Shown one piece after another: positions 7,281 through 17,439 of a stretch of DNA of 64,000 bases. Within the stretch, counting starts at the first letter, position 1. The number at the start of each line of letters is the position of its first letter. Below the pieces are notes generated by a model. It saw nothing but the letters and a program-made list of their open reading frames with translations, did no database searches and was not told the DNA's origin. Source of the stretch: Candidatus Saccharicenans sp. (GTDB lineage: Bacteria; Acidobacteriota; Aminicenantia; Aminicenantales; Saccharicenantaceae); assembly GCA_049719515.1 (NCBI GenBank), contig JBNARJ010000012.1:2823-66822 (forward strand), given 5' to 3'. The translations under genes were made by a program, and so were the position numbers.

Positions 7281-7581
7281 CCTTTGGTTTCTTTATTTAT
7301 TCTTTTCGGCTTTATTAATTTTTATCGGCATCTACTGTCTGCTGACCATGCGCAATGTCATCCGGCTGTTTATCGCCGTGGAGATTATTAGCAAAGGCGT
7401 AAGCCTGGCCATTGTGGCCACCGGCGCGGTGAAAAACTCTGTGATCCTGGCCCAGAGCCTGGCAATTACCTACATCGTGGTGGAGGTTAGCCTGGTGGCT
7501 ACCGCCCTGGCCCTGATTATTAACATATACAAAAAGAATAAAAGCCTCGATGTACGTTTATTATCAAAATTGAAGGGATAA
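7273..7581 (+). CDS. NuoK/MrpC-like membrane subunit
   Basis: About 102 aa, 3 TM helices, two conserved Glu (AVEII, VVEVS), ends LSKLKG like NuoK. Start reassigned to ATG 7273. Confidence 0.85.
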   Translation: MSNLWFLYLFFSALLIFIGIYCLLTMRNVIRLFIAVEIISKGVSLAIVATGAVKNSVILAQSLAITYIVVEVSLVATALALIINIYKKNKSLDVRLLSKLKG

Positions 7582-10983: not shown

Positions 10984-11378
10984 GGATCGGCGCTTTTATC
11001 CCGGAACTTTTTCGTCATCTATTCAGAAAACCGGCTACGGTGGATTATCCATTCACCAAACTGGAAGTCCCTTCCGGCTTCCGCGGTTCTCCTTATCTTA
11101 AACCCGAAACCTGCATTGTTTGCCGGGCCTGTGAGCGGGATTGTCCGGCTGAGGCTATCGAAATTCTCTCAATCAACGAAGCTGAAAAAAAATTCAAGAT
11201 GATCATTCACAATGACCGTTGCATTCACTGCGCGCAATGCGTGGATTCCTGCCCGACCGATGCCATGCAGATGGACACCAGGTTCGAAATATCCGACTAT
11301 GACCGGCACAACCTCAAGATGGAATGGGAATACGTCCGGGCGGTGGTCAAGCCCAAATCAGCCGAGCCTAAAGCTTGA
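10980..11378 (+). CDS. NuoI/MbhN-like 2x[4Fe-4S] ferredoxin subunit
   Basis: Two CxxCxxCxxxCP motifs (CIVCRACERDCP, CIHCAQCVDSCP). Confidence 0.93.
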   Translation: MRIGAFIPELFRHLFRKPATVDYPFTKLEVPSGFRGSPYLKPETCIVCRACERDCPAEAIEILSINEAEKKFKMIIHNDRCIHCAQCVDSCPTDAMQMDTRFEISDYDRHNLKMEWEYVRAVVKPKSAEPKA

Positions 11379-11471
11379 TTTATTTAAAGCAGTAAAATTT
11401 TTCTTGCCTGCGAGATGCCGATAGATTAAATTAGCTACTTGGTAAATCAGGAGAAAGAGGTAATAAGGCTA

Positions 11472-11975
11472 ATGACCTCCGACTGGCAAAATTACCTGAA
11501 AAAAGAATTGCGGGGGATGGAAAAAATCGTCATCTTGGGAACAGGGAACGCCCTGGAAGCCGATGATGCCGCCGGACTTTATGTGGCCAGCTTGCTTGAT
11601 GGCAAGCTGTCCAAATACCAGAAGTCCCGCATTAAAGTACTGAGGGCTTACGAGATAATCGATATCTACTTAAAAAAGATTAAAAGAATCAAGCCCAGCC
11701 ACCTGCTAATCGTCGACGCCGTGGATTTAAAGAAAAAGCCGGGAACTATTATGGTCGAAAGGCTCGATATAGAAAAAAAGCGAAAAAGAAAGATGGGGGG
11801 AGAATTCGCCAGCTTCATGGAAAAGCTGGCCAGTGAAGCTGCCTGCAAGATTTATATCATAGGCATTCAGCCGCAGAGGCTTGATTTTGGCCACCCGATA
11901 ACACCCGTGATAAAAGACGCCTGCCGCCTGCTGGCTGATTTTTTGTTTTCTCTTGTGCCAAGAAAGACTAAATAA
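11472..11975 (+). CDS. hycI: Hydrogenase maturation endopeptidase (HycI-like)
   Basis: ILGTGNALEADDAAG and LIVDAVD motifs; IIGIQPQRLDFG. The start could be 11439 or 11472. Confidence 0.8.
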   Translation: MTSDWQNYLKKELRGMEKIVILGTGNALEADDAAGLYVASLLDGKLSKYQKSRIKVLRAYEIIDIYLKKIKRIKPSHLLIVDAVDLKKKPGTIMVERLDIEKKRKRKMGGEFASFMEKLASEAACKIYIIGIQPQRLDFGHPITPVIKDACRLLADFLFSLVPRKTK

Positions 11976-12204
11976 TTTTCTATCCTAACTAAAATTAGTG
12001 TTAGCGCGGATACAACAAACAGCCCTCAATTACTTATGACCTAAAACAATATAATTAGCTAATAATTTATCCACTGCCTGGAAGTTAGCATGATAGGGGA
12101 CAGCCCTTCGGCCGGCTAACCGGACATTAAATTAGTGCTGACTTATTTGATAAGATTGCTCTTGAAATTTTGTCTGCAAGAAGCCCGGGAAAAAACCAGC
12201 TTCT

Positions 12205-13302
12205 TCAAATCTTCATCGGCATCAAAATATACAGGTAAGTGCCTTTTTCTTCCGGCTCTGGCTTTATCAACACGGCACTGTTTTCATCTTTTATCTCAAA
12301 GCGCACCTTTTCTGAGGACACTGTTCCCAGAAAGTCAAGCAGGTATTGAGCGTTAAACCCTATCTCCAGCTCTTTACCCTGATATTCTACCTCGAGTTTA
12401 TCCCGCGCTTCTCCTATTTCCGGGTTAGAAGAAAACATCCTTAATTCATCTTTCTCTATCTCGAATTTTATGCCCTTCGATTTTTCAGAGGAAAGCAGAG
12501 AAACTCTTTTGATGGCATTTATCAAGTTTTCGCGGTTTATCAAAAGTTTGTTCGGGTTGTCTTTCGGGATAACCGCCTGATAATTAGGAAATTTACTCTC
12601 TATGATTCTTGAAATGAGCATCCGGTTATTGACCCTGAAAAACAAGCTGTTATCGTCAAAATCAAAATCAATTTTTTCATCTTCAAATTTCTTCAGCTCG
12701 TTCAGCGTTTTTTTCGAGACGATCTGGTTTATTTCTTCATCCGTAATCAAATTCTCAAATTCGCGGCGATTATAAGCCAGGCGGTGCCCATCAGTGCTGA
12801 CCAGCTCGAGCTGATTTTTTCTGACCGACAGCAGAGCGCCGTTGAGGTAATATCTCTGCTCCTGAGTAATGGCATAGAGCACACAATCAATCATGTCCTT
12901 AAATTCGTTTAAATTAAAACTAATATTTCTTTCAAAACTGCATTCTGGAATGGGCGGGAAATCCTCTTCCTGAGCGGTAACAATTTTAATTTCACTTTCT
13001 CCGCTTTTAACAATCAGATAATCTTCCTTGCGCACAAAATCTATCGGCCTGTCTTCAGGCAGCAATTTAATAAAATCAAAAAGTTTACGACCGTTTACGG
13101 CGGCCACACCTTCTTTCTTTATTTCAGCCTCAAAATATGTTCTTAAACCAACCTCCAGGTCGGTCCCCATCATTACCACCCTGTCCTTTTCAGCTTTTAT
13201 CAGGACATTGGACAGTATAGGCATGGTCGTCCTTTTTTCCACAATACCCTGAAGGAGGCTTAACTCGTTAATAATATTGGATTTACTGGCTGAAAAATTC
13301 AT
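12205..13302 (-). CDS. dnaN: DNA polymerase III beta sliding clamp
   Basis: TTMPILSNVLI, GTDLEV, STDGHRL, FPNYQAVIP, YILMPMKI; directly downstream of dnaA. Confidence 0.98.
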   Translation of the reverse strand: MNFSASKSNIINELSLLQGIVEKRTTMPILSNVLIKAEKDRVVMMGTDLEVGLRTYFEAEIKKEGVAAVNGRKLFDFIKLLPEDRPIDFVRKEDYLIVKSGESEIKIVTAQEEDFPPIPECSFERNISFNLNEFKDMIDCVLYAITQEQRYYLNGALLSVRKNQLELVSTDGHRLAYNRREFENLITDEEINQIVSKKTLNELKKFEDEKIDFDFDDNSLFFRVNNRMLISRIIESKFPNYQAVIPKDNPNKLLINRENLINAIKRVSLLSSEKSKGIKFEIEKDELRMFSSNPEIGEARDKLEVEYQGKELEIGFNAQYLLDFLGTVSSEKVRFEIKDENSAVLIKPEPEEKGTYLYILMPMKI

Positions 13303-13416
13303 TTTTCCACCTTTCCTTGGTTTTTATATATCAATTAAAATTATAAATATCCAGTTAAAATAAAACAATAAAAATCATTGCAAAAGTGAAAAATTTTCCT
13401 ATCTGCTTGATTTTTC

Positions 13417-14748
13417 TCATTGTAAGAGGTTAATCAGAGTGTTGATTTCTCTGTTAATTTCCGGGTCTTCCTTGATTAATTTCTCAATTTTCCTGATGCT
13501 GTGGAGAACTGTCGTGTGGTGTTTGCCTCCAAACTTTTTTCCTATTTCTGGTAAAGAACTATCAGTCAGCTCTTTTGCCAGATACATGGCCACCTGTCTG
13601 GGGAAGGCCACCCGCGGAGAATTATTTTTCGACTTTAACTCGGTCGGTTTCAATTTGTAGTGGTTGCTTACAACTTTCTGTATTTTTTCAACAGTGATGA
13701 CATTGGCTGAGGCGTCAAGCAGGCCTTTTAAGGCTTCTTTGGCCAGCTCTAAATCAATCTTTGCTCCTTTCAAAGAAGCATAAGCGATAACTCTTCTCAG
13801 ATAGCCTTCCAGCTCTCTTATGTTTGAGTGAACCTTATCAGCGATATACAGGGCGACCGGTTCAGGCAGAACCACGTCCTCCAGCTCAGCTTTCTTTTTT
13901 AGAATGGCGATTCTGGTCTCGATGTCGGGAGGTTTCAGGTCGGCAATCAACCCCCATTCAAACCTGGAGCGAAACCTGTCTTCCAAGTGAGGAATGTCCT
14001 TTGGCGGACAGTCGCTGGAAATGACAATCTGTTTTTGAGAATCATATAAGTGATTGAAAGTATGGAAGAATTCTTCCTTGGTTCTTTCTCTGCCTGAAAT
14101 GTAATGGATGTCATCCATAAGTAATACGTCAACCGCGCGGTATTTCTGACGGAATTCAATTATCTTTCCGTACTGGAGGTGGTTGATCAAATCATTCATG
14201 AACCTTTCGGTCGTCACGTACATGACTTTAAGCTTGGCATTGTTGGCCATAATATAATGGCCGATGGCGTTCATCAGGTGAGTTTTTCCAAGCCCGGCGC
14301 CGCCGTAAATGTACAGGGGGTTGTAAGATTTAGCCGGGTTTTTGGCCACGGCCAGAGCGGCAGCATGAGCAAACTGATTGCATGAACCAACCACAAAATT
14401 TTCAAAAGTATAGGTCGGGTTTAGGTTGGCGGCCTGGACAATAGATTTTTCTATCTTTCGTTCCTCCGGGGAGTTCCTTAAGAAAGAATTTGGCGTATCG
14501 TCATATATGTATTTTATGTCAAAAACCTTATCGAAAAGCTGCCGCGAACACTCGTTTATCAGACGCGAATAGTGAAAACTGAGCCAGTCTTTAAAATATG
14601 AGTTAGGAACCTTAATGTACAGAGTGTCGCCTTCTTCCCCTATGTAAGTGGTAGGCTCAAACCAGGTGGAAAAAGCATTCTCGTCGACGCGGTTTTTTAA
14701 CTCCGCCAGTAATTTATTCCAGATATTAGCTTTATATTCTTGTTTCAT
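13417..14748 (-). CDS. dnaA: Chromosomal replication initiator DnaA
   Basis: LNPTYTFENFVVG, YGGAGLGKTHL (Walker A), DVLLMDDI, HHTTVLHS. Start reassigned to ATG 14748 (MKQEYKANIW). Confidence 0.98.
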   Translation of the reverse strand: MKQEYKANIWNKLLAELKNRVDENAFSTWFEPTTYIGEEGDTLYIKVPNSYFKDWLSFHYSRLINECSRQLFDKVFDIKYIYDDTPNSFLRNSPEERKIEKSIVQAANLNPTYTFENFVVGSCNQFAHAAALAVAKNPAKSYNPLYIYGGAGLGKTHLMNAIGHYIMANNAKLKVMYVTTERFMNDLINHLQYGKIIEFRQKYRAVDVLLMDDIHYISGRERTKEEFFHTFNHLYDSQKQIVISSDCPPKDIPHLEDRFRSRFEWGLIADLKPPDIETRIAILKKKAELEDVVLPEPVALYIADKVHSNIRELEGYLRRVIAYASLKGAKIDLELAKEALKGLLDASANVITVEKIQKVVSNHYKLKPTELKSKNNSPRVAFPRQVAMYLAKELTDSSLPEIGKKFGGKHHTTVLHSIRKIEKLIKEDPEINREINTLINLLQ

Positions 14749-14760
14749 GTCTGCCCGATA

Positions 14761-14794
14761 GATTTCCACAAAGATTTCCACAGTTGTGGAAATC
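14761..14794. promoter_or_regulatory. Three identical DnaA-box-like 10-mers (GATTTCCACA): candidate oriC / dnaA autoregulatory site
   Basis: GATTTCCACA at 14761-14770 and 14773-14782, inverted TGTGGAAATC at 14785-14794, followed by an AT-rich tract (about 14800-14895). Confidence 0.7.
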
Positions 14795-15085
14795 TTCCCT
14801 TTTAAATTTCTTTCCTTGAAAAGCTTCCAAAATATTATCAATTTCTGCACTGAATTTCAAGAAATTTTTTTTTATAAAAAATATTATTTTCAGTCAGAAT
14901 TCCGGTGATCTCCTCTCTGCCAGACCTTTGGCTGTCACCAAATTTTATACTGGGATAACTTGCTTTTTTCGAGCAAAGGTGCCGGTTAACCTTTTAGCCG
15001 GCGAGGGGTTGATTTATGCCGAGAAATATGTTATACAAATAACTCCAATAACCTACTGAAAATTCAAAGGAAAGAGAGAAGGACC

Positions 15086-15277
15086 ATGGCGAGAGAGTGT
15101 GATATTTGTCATAAAGGACCTATCTTCGGTCACAGCATCAGCCACTCTAACAAGGCTACCAACAGAAAATGGAGCGTTAACCTGCAGAGAGTTAAAGCCC
15201 GCACGGAAAACGGCGTCCGGAGAATTTGGGTTTGCACCCGGTGCCTTCGTTCCGGCAGGGTACAAAAAGCCGTCTGA
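15086..15277 (+). CDS. rpmB: 50S ribosomal protein L28 (Zn-ribbon form)
   Basis: MARECDICHKGPIFGHSISHSNKATNRKWSVNLQRV...VCTRCLRSG. Confidence 0.97.
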   Translation: MARECDICHKGPIFGHSISHSNKATNRKWSVNLQRVKARTENGVRRIWVCTRCLRSGRVQKAV

Positions 15278-15279
15278 GG

Positions 15280-17439
15280 TCAGCTCCTCTCCACCGAGTG
15301 AATATCTTTCAGTTTAGCAATACGTTTAATAATCTCGTTTAAATGGTTTATGTCTTTGATGGTTACTTCCAGGTTGATGGAAGCGTCTCCCTCACCGGAA
15401 GTGCTGACTTCAGCTTTAGTAATGTTCCCGTTTAGCTCGGCCACGGCCGTGGCCACCCGGGCCAGAACGCCAGGTGAGTCTTTTGAAGTGATGGTCAGCT
15501 TGGCTTTAAACCTTCCCTCGTAAGACGGGTCCCACGTCACCTCCACCAAACGCTGGCTGTCGAGAATTTCCTTGCTCACCAGGTAGCATCTTTGAGCATG
15601 GACGGTCAAACCTTTGCCGGAGGTGAGGTATCCAACCACGGGTTCTCCTTTGACCGGCTGGCAGCAGCGGGCCAGGGTAATCATCTGCTCTTGAAGATTG
15701 CGGATGACCAAACCGCCGGGCTGATGACGGCCGGTCAGAGAGTCGACCATTTTCTTGAAGAGACCAGAAACCGGTGGCTGACCCAAGGTGGCTTCTGCCG
15801 CCAGGCGTTCGACCAGCTTTCTGTTGATGATGACTTTACCCAGGCCGGCCAGGACGAAAAAGTCATCCATGGTCTGGATTCTTAGCTTTAATTCCTGCCT
15901 CAGCCGGTTTTTCAGGTTTTCTTCAGAGCGCAATTCAGCCGGCAGCTGATATTTACTGATTTCTTTTTCCCAGAGTTTTTTGCCCAGGGCGAGGGCCTTC
16001 TGGCGTGTTTTTAAATTAAGATACCTTTTGATGTTTTGTCGAGCCTGAGCGGTGGCCACCCAGTTCAGCCAGCTGCGGTTCGGTTCTCTCCCTGGCGCAG
16101 TAATGATTTCCACAATATCCCCGGTATGAAGCTGAGTTTTTAGAGGCATGAGCTCGCCGTTAATCCGAGCTTGTGACGCCTTAAGCCCTATTTCCGTGTG
16201 TATTTTAAAGGCAAAATCGAGTGCCGTTGCTCCCGGCGGCAGGGTTATTACTTTTCCCTTCGGGGTAAAGGCATAAATCTCTTCCGGGATCAGGTTAATC
16301 TTAAGGTTTTTTAGAAATTCTTTGGGATTTTTCTGCTCGCTGAACAGAGCGGCGATTTCCCTGAGCCACTGCAACCTCTGGTCTTCACTGGCCAGCCCGG
16401 TAGGTGCCCCCTCTTTATACTTCCAGTGAGCGGCAATCCCGTTTTCGGCCAGTTCGTGCATTTCTCGGGTTCTAATCTGGATTTCAAAAGTCTGTTTGTT
16501 TTCTGTGATGATGGTGGTATGCAGCGATTGGTAAAGATTCGGCTTGGGCATGGCGATGAAATCTCGAAAGCGCTGCGGCAGATGAGGCCAGCGCTGGTGA
16601 ATTATGCCCAGAGCGGCGTAGCAGTTTTTTACCGAGTCGGTAATGATGCGCAGCGCCAGGAAATCATAAACCTGGTCGAACCCCACCCCTTTTCTTTTCA
16701 TCTTGGTGTAGATGCTGTAAAGCCTTTTGATTCTGGACTGGATTTCGGCCGGGATGCCGTTTTCTTTTAAAACCTGCTCCATCTCCTTTTTTAATTTCTT
16801 TAGTTCTTTTTCGCCCTTTTTGAGCTCGGGCTCGACCAGGGCGACCATGCGAAAATATTCATCAGGCTCCACATAGCGAAAAGACAGGTCTTCCAGTTCG
16901 GCGCGTATTTTTCCCATGCCCAGCCGGTTGGCAATCGGAGCGTAGATTTCCAGAGTTTCCTGGGCGATCCTTTTCTGCTTGTCTTCGGGCAGGAAGTGCA
17001 GGGTTTTTAAGTTGTGCCAGCGGTCAGCCAGTTTGATGAATATAACTCGCAAGTCATCAGTCATGGCCAGGATGATTTTGCGGATGGTTTCCGCCCGCGT
17101 TTCCTCTGGCGTGGCGTCTTCTACCCTGGCAATCTTGGTCACGCCTTCGACCAGGTCGGCCACTTCCTTGCCGAAATTTTCCCTTATTTCCTGGATGGTA
17201 ACGTCTGTATCTTCCGGCACATCGTGCAACAGTCCGGCCACCAGAGTGGTCAGGTCAAGGTTCATATCGGCCAGAATGTTGGTCACTTCCAGCGGATGGC
17301 TGAGGTAGGGCTCGCCCGAACGGCGGATCTGCCCCTTGTGTGCTCGGGCAGCGAATATATAGGCTTTTTGCAGCTGGCGGATGTCTTTTTCCGAATACTT
17401 GCCCTGTATCTTTTCTACTATGTCGTCAAAACGAATCAT
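15280..17439 (-). CDS. rel: Bifunctional (p)ppGpp synthetase/hydrolase (long RSH)
   Basis: RRSGEPYLSHP, HD motif LLHDVPED, YQSLHTT, EIQIRT, TGS (FTPKG) and ACT domains. Confidence 0.96.
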   Translation of the reverse strand: MIRFDDIVEKIQGKYSEKDIRQLQKAYIFAARAHKGQIRRSGEPYLSHPLEVTNILADMNLDLTTLVAGLLHDVPEDTDVTIQEIRENFGKEVADLVEGVTKIARVEDATPEETRAETIRKIILAMTDDLRVIFIKLADRWHNLKTLHFLPEDKQKRIAQETLEIYAPIANRLGMGKIRAELEDLSFRYVEPDEYFRMVALVEPELKKGEKELKKLKKEMEQVLKENGIPAEIQSRIKRLYSIYTKMKRKGVGFDQVYDFLALRIITDSVKNCYAALGIIHQRWPHLPQRFRDFIAMPKPNLYQSLHTTIITENKQTFEIQIRTREMHELAENGIAAHWKYKEGAPTGLASEDQRLQWLREIAALFSEQKNPKEFLKNLKINLIPEEIYAFTPKGKVITLPPGATALDFAFKIHTEIGLKASQARINGELMPLKTQLHTGDIVEIITAPGREPNRSWLNWVATAQARQNIKRYLNLKTRQKALALGKKLWEKEISKYQLPAELRSEENLKNRLRQELKLRIQTMDDFFVLAGLGKVIINRKLVERLAAEATLGQPPVSGLFKKMVDSLTGRHQPGGLVIRNLQEQMITLARCCQPVKGEPVVGYLTSGKGLTVHAQRCYLVSKEILDSQRLVEVTWDPSYEGRFKAKLTITSKDSPGVLARVATAVAELNGNITKAEVSTSGEGDASINLEVTIKDINHLNEIIKRIAKLKDIHSVERS

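What the first reader, a model, noticed from the sequence alone, without database searches (positions are those of the whole stretch)
13417..14900. Variant DnaA boxes paired with substitutions in DnaA's DNA-reading residues
Seen: three identical GATTTCCACA 10-mers within 34 bp just upstream of dnaA (two direct with a 12-bp period, one inverted; boxes 2 and 3 form a 12-bp-arm palindrome). The 9-mer ATTTCCACA differs from TTATCCACA at positions 1 and 3. DnaA domain IV aligns cleanly with E. coli but reads KNNS for KRRS (R399 to N) and GGKHH for GGRDH (D433 to H). Established: R399 contacts the minor groove at the 5' TTA end of the box, and D433/H434 read the major groove. Inference: a co-evolved, lineage-specific DnaA box and the location of oriC. 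The AT-rich tracts at about 14800-14895 and 13320-13410 are candidate unwinding elements.
Basis: partly seen in the sequence, partly recalled or inferred. Interest (0 to 1): 0.65.

Follow-up and report, generated by a model that had tools for sequence, protein, structure and literature searches.

The report
DnaA-box operator in dnaA leader
Three binding sites for the replication initiator DnaA sit in fixed positions just before its own gene in this uncultured Aminicenantes bacterium and across its phylum, most likely as a self-regulating switch beside the replication origin; the initiator's two changed DNA-reading residues are real but are not shown to have co-evolved with the site.

Summary
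Three identical GATTTCCACA 10-mers lie at 14761-14794, where 0.08 copies per window are expected by chance. DnaA reads N for E. coli R399 and H for D433.

- The true dnaA start is the ATG at 14748, so the boxes are non-coding.
- The boxes sit at -45, -34 and -22, between a conserved sigma-70-type promoter and the ATG, in all 81 Aminicenantales loci. The same one-forward, two-reverse layout recurs across Acidobacteriota. This fits an autoregulatory operator, possibly one half of a two-part origin.
- GC skew changes sign at dnaA. The best-conserved AT-rich tract is the dnaA-dnaN spacer, not the tract upstream.
- The lineage consensus is WTTTCCACA, mostly TTTTCCACA. That is the published cyanobacterial box and fits the relaxed E. 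coli consensus.
- N399 and H433 are phylum-wide. Cyanobacteria use TTTTCCACA with R399 and D433 intact, and Acidobacteriota that carry R, K, G or S at 399 keep the same box. Co-evolution is therefore unproven.

Extra finding: a second conserved three-box module elsewhere in the genome has exactly the E. coli DARS-core spacing.

The parts
14785..14793 (-). DnaA box I (ATTTCCACA on the dnaA sense strand, -45..-37 from the ATG)
   Evidence: A box occupies the same position in 81/81 loci.
14774..14782 (+). DnaA box II (ATTTCCACA on the + strand, opposite in direction to box I; 2-bp gap to box I)
14762..14770 (+). DnaA box III (ATTTCCACA on the + strand; 3-bp gap to box II; ends 13 bp before the ATG)
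14832..14860 (-). Sigma-70-type dnaA promoter: TTGAAA, 17-bp spacer, TG-n-TAATAT
   Evidence: Consensus scan. The same -35/-10 pair lies 111-118 nt from the ATG in 77 of 81 relatives. Its function is inferred.
13417..14748 (-). dnaA, 443 aa, with N376 (E. coli R399) and H410 (E. coli D433) in domain IV
13303..13416 (.). dnaA-dnaN spacer: a degenerate box (TTTTTCACT, 13385-13393) followed by a very AT-rich tract; the best candidate for the unwinding element
   Evidence: Relatives carry a wTwTnCACA box at +1354 (28 of 81 by a strict pattern). Mean AT is 83-87% at +1380..+1410 over 80 genomes. Unwinding is not tested.
14862..14895 (.).
   Evidence: Present in the window, but AT averages only 60-69% at this position across relatives. 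It overlaps the place where an UP element would sit.
12205..13302 (-). dnaN, with a TTTTCCACA at 13235-13243 that encodes the conserved peptide I-V-E-K

Best explanation
The three 10-mers are DnaA boxes of the type WTTTCCACA. They are arranged one forward and two reverse, with gaps of 2 and 3 bp, in the transcribed leader of dnaA between a conserved sigma-70-type promoter and the ATG at 14748.

DnaA bound there would block or slow its own transcription. This is autoregulation, as is known for the dnaA genes of E. coli and B. subtilis. The chromosome origin lies at or beside dnaA. The triple may also serve as the upstream half of a two-part origin whose unwinding element is the AT-rich dnaA-dnaN spacer.

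The N399 and H433 substitutions are a phylum-wide trait of Acidobacteriota DnaA. They may loosen reading of the 5' third of the box (position 1 is A or T, position 3 is mostly T), but they are not needed for a TTTTCCACA-type box.

Shown here: the sequence, the positional conservation, the non-coding status, the skew switch and the distribution of the residues. Inferred: DnaA binding, repression and the site of unwinding.
For: - Start codon. All 81 loci give a 443-aa DnaA from the same start. B. subtilis DnaA residue 5 aligns with residue 7 here. In 27 of 81 relatives an in-frame stop lies within 16 codons upstream of the ATG, and the distance from the -35 element to the ATG varies from 111 to 118 nt.
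- Position. Boxes sit at -45(+), -34(-) and -22(-) in 81/81 loci. In 100-bp bins over 7.3-kb loci, 239 strict box hits fall in the bin from -100 to 0, and the bins further upstream hold almost none.
- Promoter. TTGAAA-17-TAATAT lies upstream of the boxes.
- Phylum-wide layout. The same forward-reverse-reverse module lies next to dnaA in many Acidobacteriota families.
- Strict geometry. In 81 genomes of the order, the first gap is only ever 2 or 5 bp out of the allowed 1-8. The reversed control pattern gave 0 hits.
- Origin. GC skew on contig C12 turns from negative to positive at window positions 13-15 kb. In the closed relative OY969586.1, skew is negative up to 1.5 Mb and positive from 1.7 Mb, with dnaA at 1.63 Mb.
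- Residues. N at position 399 in 81/81 loci of the order and 58/69 elsewhere in the phylum; H at 433 in 64/69.
Against: - No binding, transcription-start or unwinding data exist for this organism.
- An RNA-seq contig (depth 2.4) spans 14720-14934, which runs past the predicted promoter. So either there is transcription from further upstream or DNA carried over into the library.
- dnaA has no recognisable Shine-Dalgarno sequence after box III.
- Only three strong boxes flank dnaA, which is few for an origin, and the spacer box is degenerate in this genome (TTTTTCACT).
- The skew evidence rests on one 68-kb contig and on coarse sampling of one relative.
Confidence: 0.7

Rival explanations
1. The triple is the DnaA-assembly core of oriC itself, and unwinding occurs in an adjacent AT-rich tract. 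That tract is either upstream at 14862-14895 or, in a two-part origin like those of B. subtilis and H. pylori, the dnaA-dnaN spacer. This reading does not exclude autoregulation.
For: GC skew changes sign at dnaA. The dnaA-dnaN spacer has a conserved box followed by a tract of 83-87% AT in 80 genomes. The T-rich tract after the spacer box meets the loose published criterion of at least three NAN trios within 16 bp of a box (PMC8287927).
Against: Boxes II and III are followed within 13 bp by the dnaA ATG, and box I is followed by boxes II and III, so no DnaA-trio array adjoins the triple. The triple lies downstream of the promoter. The upstream AT tract is only 60-69% AT across relatives. The NAN criterion does not discriminate in T-rich DNA.
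Confidence: 0.35
2. N399 and H433 retuned DnaA so that it prefers WTTTCCACA over TTATCCACA, so the protein and its box co-evolved.
For: R399 reads the 5'-TTA of the box in the minor groove, and R399A is defective in binding (PMC5742627). R399 and D433 are two of the six base-reading residues (PMC2533591, PMC7561715). The five solved DnaA proteins have R or K at 399, and four of the five have D at 433. In N/H lineages the first three box letters are TTT 57, ATT 23 and TTA 5. Within the order, position 3 is T in 87% of boxes and position 1 is T 66% / A 34%.
Against: All 118 cyanobacterial DnaA clusters examined have SRRRE and GGKDHTTV, that is R399 and D433. These include Cyanothece 51142, whose domain IV binds TTTTCCACA by gel shift (PMC4674748). 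Acidobacteriota with R (L107), K (L157), G (L158) or S (L160) at 399 still carry WTTTCCACA boxes before dnaA. TTATCCACA or ATATCCACA fills 23 of 243 box slots in the order. TTTTCCACA already fits the relaxed consensus TT(A/T)TNCACA. The association rests on one phylogenetic event.
Confidence: 0.25
3. The leader triple is a DARS-type module that promotes ADP release from DnaA, here built into the dnaA leader.
For: Box I is opposite in direction to boxes II and III, and the gap between II and III is 3 bp, as in the E. coli DARS1 and DARS2 cores (PMC5742627).
Against: The gap between boxes I and II is 2 bp, not 5 bp. The same genomes hold a separate distal module with the exact 5/3 spacing, and the two classes do not mix.
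Confidence: 0.1
4. The repeats are coding: the true start is the upstream GTG at 14850 and the repeats translate as V-E-I.
For: The frame is open from 14850. Some database gene calls for close relatives are 450-478 aa long.
Against: All 81 relatives share the 443-aa start. In-frame stops lie 2-3 codons upstream in 24 of them. The upstream length varies by amounts that are not multiples of 3. The alignment with B. subtilis DnaA starts at residue 7.
Confidence: 0.02

Closest known systems
Cyanobacterial DnaA box TTTTCCACA (Synechococcus PCC 7942, Anabaena PCC 7120, Cyanothece 51142)
   Same: It has the same 9-mer as the commonest box here, differing from TTATCCACA at position 3 (PMC4674748, PMC10225481).
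   Different: Cyanobacterial DnaA keeps R399 and D433. Their boxes cluster next to dnaN. Position 1 here is A or T.
dnaA autoregulation through DnaA boxes in the dnaA promoter or leader region (E. coli, B. subtilis)
   Same: DnaA boxes lie between or after the promoter elements of the initiator's own gene (my own knowledge of those systems).
   Different: Here exactly three boxes hold fixed positions and spacing (gaps 2 and 3, one forward and two reverse), and this is conserved across a phylum. I found no description of this layout in the papers searched.
B. subtilis-type two-part oriC flanking dnaA, with the unwinding element between dnaA and dnaN
   Same: Boxes lie upstream of dnaA, and a box plus an AT-rich tract lie in the dnaA-dnaN spacer.
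   Different: There are far fewer boxes here. No clear 3'-GAT-5' trio array is present. Unwinding is untested.
E. coli DARS1 / DARS2 core
   Same: There are three boxes, with box I opposite in direction to boxes II and III and a 3-bp gap between II and III. The distal module (contig C3 7550-7584) matches the full 5/3 spacing.
   Different: The leader triple in the window has a 2-bp gap between boxes I and II. No nucleotide-exchange activity is known outside E. coli and its relatives.
E. coli DnaA domain IV bound to a DnaA box (PDB 1J1V)
   Same: Domain IV aligns without gaps over 92 residues (E = 3.5e-26). P423, H434, T435 and H439 are kept.
   Different: R399 is N and D433 is H. The basic loop reads KNNSPR instead of KRRSRS, with a basic residue moved to the position of E. 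coli S402.
Thermotoga maritima DnaA with its 12-mer box AAACCTACCACC
   Same: It is a precedent for a changed signature helix paired with a changed box (PMC10225481; alignment).
   Different: The T. maritima signature (N-RSHPVV) and its box are far more divergent. Here the 3' two-thirds of the box, TCCACA, is unchanged.

Membership tests
DnaA box (TT[A/T]TNCACA) | 9-mer matching the consensus | tested here: met
   ATTTCCACA matches 8 of 9 positions of the relaxed consensus, and TTTTCCACA in relatives matches 9 of 9. Positions 2, 4 and 6-9 are all but invariant over 243 boxes.
DnaA box (TT[A/T]TNCACA) | Bound by DnaA domain IV | not testable with these tools
   This needs a gel shift or footprint with the cognate protein.
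dnaA autoregulatory operator | Boxes within or downstream of the dnaA promoter and upstream of the start codon | tested here: met
   The -35/-10 pair is at 14860-14832 and the boxes are at 14793-14762, before the ATG at 14748. This holds in 77 to 81 of the 81 loci. The promoter is a consensus match supported by conservation; it has not been mapped.
dnaA autoregulatory operator | DnaA level changes dnaA transcription | not testable with these tools
   RNA contigs at depth 2-7 neither confirm nor exclude the predicted transcription start.
Bacterial oriC | GC-skew sign change at the locus | tested here: met
   Contig C12 goes from negative to positive at window positions 13-15 kb. Coarse sampling of OY969586.1 agrees.
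Bacterial oriC | Box cluster adjoining an AT-rich unwinding element with DnaA-trios | tested here: inconclusive
   There are three strong boxes plus a conserved spacer box and an AT tract. No 3'-GAT-5' array is present; only the loose NAN criterion is met.
Bacterial oriC | Supports initiation or autonomous replication | not testable with these tools
   This is an experimental test.
DARS core (E. coli DARS1/2) | Three boxes, with box I opposite in direction to boxes II and III | tested here: met
DARS core (E. coli DARS1/2) | Start-to-start spacing of 14 and 12 bp (gaps of 5 and 3) | tested here: not met
   The leader triple has spacings of 11 and 12. The distal module on contig C3 has 14 and 12.
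DARS core (E. coli DARS1/2) | Stimulates ADP release from ADP-DnaA | not testable with these tools
   This is a biochemical assay.
Canonical DnaA domain IV reading head | The six base-specific residues R399, P423, D433, H434, T435 and H439 | tested here: not met
   Four of the six are kept; R399 is N and D433 is H (residue list from PMC2533591 and PMC7561715). The protein as a whole is a clear DnaA (TIGR00362, 565 bits against a 344-bit cut-off).

The most novel reading that the evidence does not exclude
Acidobacteriota DnaA, with N in place of the minor-groove arginine R399 and H in place of D433, is a natural specificity variant. It no longer reads the 5'-TTA of the box through R399; instead it accepts or prefers W-T-T, perhaps through the displaced basic residue at the position of E. 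coli S402. The phylum also uses two rigid three-box modules: one with gaps of 2 and 3 in the dnaA leader, and one with gaps of 5 and 3, the DARS-core spacing, 330-510 kb away. These may be separate devices for controlling the amount of DnaA and its nucleotide state.
Probability: 0.2. Interest if true: 0.65.

Novelty: new variant of a known kind. Interest (0 to 1): 0.42.

Why it matters
DnaA boxes before dnaA are ordinary, so the core of this finding is unsurprising. Three points are of wider use.

1. A whole phylum has replaced two of the six residues through which DnaA reads its box, yet keeps a near-canonical box. This is a clean natural test of how much R399 and D433 contribute to specificity.

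2. Origin-prediction tools that score TTATCCACA would do better with WTTTCCACA for Acidobacteriota. They should also expect the strongest cluster to be a dnaA operator rather than the unwinding site.

3. The three-box layout comes in two strict spacings. One equals the E. coli DARS core and lies away from dnaA. This suggests that DARS-like control may reach beyond E. coli and its relatives; a 2026 review treats DARS as an E. coli system that B. subtilis lacks (PMC13220808).

Tried and rejected
- Upstream GTG start, which would make the repeats coding: rejected.
- The distal three-box site on contig C3 as the origin: rejected. Skew is uniformly negative along C3, and in OY969586.1 the syntenic site at 2.01 Mb lies inside the positive-skew arm.
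- Genome-wide enrichment of the box: none. TTTTCCACA occurs 79 times against 81.7 expected from a 4th-order Markov model, so only the clusters are informative.
- RNAalifold on the leader between the -10 element and box I: no consensus structure. Single-sequence folds show a GC-rich hairpin ending 1-6 nt before the T-run of box I in many relatives (mean z = -1.2), but only -2.8 kcal/mol in this window. This is left unexplained.
- The high-GC Acidobacteriota family with R at 399 (loop KKRSRQQ) as a within-phylum contrast: it has no recognisable boxes in the 450 bp before dnaA, so it gives no contrast.
- Domain IV search of the 5.8-billion-protein set: it listed only close relatives and gave no view of other phyla.
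- RNA-seq contigs for the transcription start: too shallow to decide.

Full report
**What is there**

The window comes from an uncultured Candidatus Aminicenantes / Saccharicenans genome of the phylum Acidobacteriota: 28 contigs, 2.71 Mb, 49% GC. On the minus strand lie dnaA (13417-14748, 443 aa, TIGR00362 at 565 bits) and then dnaN (12205-13302). Upstream of dnaA lie rpmB (15086-15277, + strand) and relA/spoT (15280-17439, - strand).

The 10-mer GATTTCCACA occurs at 14761-14770 (+), 14773-14782 (+) and 14785-14794 (-). Shuffles of the window give 0.08 copies on average, and the whole genome has 13. The 12-bp direct period and the 12-nt palindromes are confirmed.

**Start codon**

The longest frame begins at a GTG at 14850 and would make the repeats coding. 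Four results show that the real start is the ATG at 14748.
- All 80 relatives fetched (72-95% identical proteins) give a 443-aa product from the homologous start.
- B. subtilis DnaA residue 5 aligns with residue 7 here.
- In 27 of 81 loci an in-frame stop lies within 16 codons upstream, and in 24 of them within 2-3 codons.
- The distance from the -35 element to the ATG varies from 111 to 118 nt, so the length changes are not multiples of three.

**Anatomy and conservation**

Read on the dnaA sense strand, the region is: TTGAAA, a 17-bp spacer, TG-n-TAATAT (14860-14832), about 40 nt, box I (forward, -45), 2 bp, box II (reverse, -34), 3 bp, box III (reverse, -22), 13 nt, ATG.

All 81 loci have this layout at these exact offsets. 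Strict box matches pile up there: 239 fall in the bin from -100 to 0, and almost none fall in the 3 kb further upstream.

The count matrix over 243 boxes is as follows. Position 1 is T 161 / A 82. Position 2 is T 241. Position 3 is T 212 / A 31. Position 4 is T 242. Position 5 is C 227 / T 16. Positions 6-9 read CACA. The commonest words are TTTTCCACA (140), ATTTCCACA (61) and TTATCCACA (15). The window's three ATTTCCACA copies are therefore a local version of a WTTTCCACA consensus.

**Beyond the order**

In 69 further Acidobacteriota dnaA loci from many families, the same forward-reverse-reverse module recurs before dnaA, at distances of about 14-200 bp. The first three box letters are TTT 57, ATT 23 and TTA 5.

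I ran an unbiased spacing test. It allowed a gap of 1-8 bp between boxes I and II, in 81 genomes of the order. Only gap 2 (about 71 hits, next to dnaA wherever the position could be checked) and gap 5 (31 hits in 30 genomes) were returned. No other gap appeared, and the reversed control pattern gave no hits. Phylum-wide, gaps of 2 or 4 lie next to dnaA, and gap 5 lies on other contigs or away from dnaA.

**Where is the origin?**

On contig C12, GC skew is negative up to about window position 13 kb and positive from about 15 kb. The cumulative minimum falls at 13179-15179. In the closed relative OY969586.1, 20-kb samples are mostly negative up to 1.5 Mb and positive from 1.7 Mb, with dnaA at 1.63 Mb. 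The origin is therefore at or near dnaA.

The triple itself is a poor unwinding core, for two reasons. It lies downstream of the promoter. It is also followed on one side by the coding region and on the other by its own partner boxes, so no DnaA-trio array adjoins it.

Averaged over 80 genomes, the only strongly conserved AT-rich tract is in the dnaA-dnaN spacer (83-87% AT at +1380..+1410). It is preceded by a box of the form wTwTnCACA at +1354, found in 28 of 81 loci by a strict pattern and visible in degenerate form in most of the others. In this window that box is degenerate: TTTTTCACT at 13385-13393. The tract upstream of the -35 element (14862-14895) averages only 60-69% AT.

My reading is that the triple is an operator in the dnaA leader and that the origin is probably two-part, as in B. 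subtilis, with unwinding in the dnaA-dnaN spacer. Unwinding is inferred, not shown.

**The DnaA residues**

The six base-specific residues of E. coli DnaA are R399, P423, D433, H434, T435 and H439 (PMC2533591, PMC7561715). R399 enters the minor groove at the 5'-TTA of the box, and R399A is defective in binding (PMC5742627).

The window's DnaA keeps four of the six and has N376 for R399 and H410 for D433. KNNSP and GGKHH are invariant in the 81 loci of the order. In the 69 other Acidobacteriota DnaA proteins, position 399 is N 58, R 8, K 1, G 1, S 1, and position 433 is H 64, N 3, D 2.

By contrast, the solved DnaA proteins of E. coli, B. subtilis, A. aeolicus and T. maritima have R at 399, and that of M. 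tuberculosis has K. All but T. maritima have D at 433. The substitutions are therefore real, unusual and phylum-wide.

**Co-evolution?**

Three results argue against the strong form of the claim.

1. TTTTCCACA is the established cyanobacterial box (PMC10225481, PMC4674748). All 118 cyanobacterial DnaA clusters retrieved carry SRRRE...ARQ and GGKDHTTV, that is R399 and D433. They include Synechocystis PCC 6803 and Cyanothece 51142, whose domain IV binds TTTTCCACA in gel shifts.

2. Within Acidobacteriota, genomes with R (L107), K (L157), G (L158) or S (L160) at position 399 still have WTTTCCACA boxes before dnaA.

3. The canonical words TTATCCACA and ATATCCACA fill 23 of the 243 box slots, and TTTTCCACA already fits the relaxed consensus TT(A/T)TNCACA.

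The link between N399/H433 and WTTTCCACA is thus one phylogenetic event and is not necessary for the box type. The substitutions may still loosen reading of positions 1 and 3, which are W and mostly T here, or shift the contact to the basic residue that appears at the position of E. coli S402. Only binding assays can tell.

**A second module (outside the window)**

The genome's only other three-box cluster is on contig C3. Its boxes are at 7550 (+), 7564 (-) and 7576 (-), in a 377-bp AT-rich spacer after an S9-peptidase gene. Its start-to-start spacing of 14 and 12 bp, and its box orientations, equal those of the E. coli DARS1 core (808+, 822-, 834- in locus L136) and the DARS2 core (636+, 650-, 662- in locus L137). 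The review PMC5742627 defines the DARS core by exactly these features.

The module is syntenic in 23 genomes I aligned. There it is followed, about 60 bp on, by a second head-to-head pair, TTGCACA-N5-TGTGCA. It lies 330-510 kb from dnaA on six large contigs. It is not at a skew switch.

Earlier notes of this scan describe a DARS-like cluster in other soil Acidobacteriota. I had found the spacing match before reading them. Its activity is untested.

**Other checks**

- The box is not enriched genome-wide (79 copies against 81.7 expected).
- RNA-seq contigs cover 14060-14934 at depth 2-7, which neither confirms nor excludes the predicted transcription start.
- A GC-rich hairpin with different stem sequences in different lineages often ends just before the T-run of box I, but it is weak in this window.

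**Verdict**

The triple is best read as a phylum-conserved DnaA operator in the dnaA leader, beside the origin. The box is of the known TTTTCCACA type. The N399/H433 reading head is a genuine and interesting natural variant, but its functional link to the box is unproven.

Noticed in passing
Own genome contig C3 7436-7812 (outside the window); boxes at 7550(+), 7564(-), 7576(-): A second three-box DnaA module has exactly the E. coli DARS1/DARS2 core spacing (14 and 12 bp start to start, box I opposite in direction). It is syntenic after an S9-peptidase gene in 23 Aminicenantales genomes and lies 330-510 kb from dnaA. About 60 bp further on it is followed by a second head-to-head pair, TTGCACA-N5-TGTGCA. 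Gap-5 modules also occur away from dnaA in at least 7 other Acidobacteriota genomes.
   Followed up: partly
window 14794-14831 (dnaA leader between the -10 element and box I); same position in loci L002-L081: In many relatives a GC-rich hairpin, whose stem sequence differs between lineages (for example CCTCTCCCGG / CCGGGAGAGG, CCCCC / GGGGG, CCTTCT / AGAAGG), ends 1-6 nt before the T-run that begins box I, which gives a terminator-like shape. The mean z-score is -1.2. In this window it is weak (-2.8 kcal/mol). RNAalifold found no consensus structure.
   Followed up: partly
window 14749-14761: dnaA has no recognisable Shine-Dalgarno sequence between box III and the ATG, in this genome or in its relatives, whereas dnaN has GAAAGGTGG. 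In 35 of 81 relatives the 2-bp gap between boxes I and II creates an ATG that opens a mini-ORF of about 10 codons running through boxes II and III. This is not conserved as an ATG in the Saccharicenans group.
   Followed up: no
window 11179-15179: The stretch from the hydrogenase-maturation gene through dnaN and dnaA is 41-42% GC, against about 50% on either side and 49% genome-wide.
   Followed up: no
dnaA coding region at +679 and +1055, and dnaN at +1505 from the dnaA ATG (window 13235-13243 for the dnaN site): Perfect TTTTCCACA words recur inside the coding sequence in many relatives. They arise from conserved peptides: FFHTF in dnaA and VEK in dnaA and dnaN. Whether DnaA uses them is unknown.
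   Followed up: partly
window 16105-16114 (+), inside relA/spoT: A fourth exact GATTTCCACA lies 1.3 kb upstream of the triple, within coding sequence. It is probably one of the 9 scattered copies in the genome.
   Followed up: no
Loci L138-L144 (a high-GC Acidobacteriota family, DnaA 36-39% identical): These DnaA proteins have R at position 399 (loop KKRSRQQ) but M-H-H in the signature. rpmH lies divergently upstream, and no recognisable DnaA boxes occur within 450 bp of dnaA.
   Followed up: partly
own genome contig C7, first ~20 kb: There is a second negative-to-positive GC-skew step (-0.043, then +0.03 to +0.07), with no box cluster nearby. It is probably local noise.
   Followed up: no
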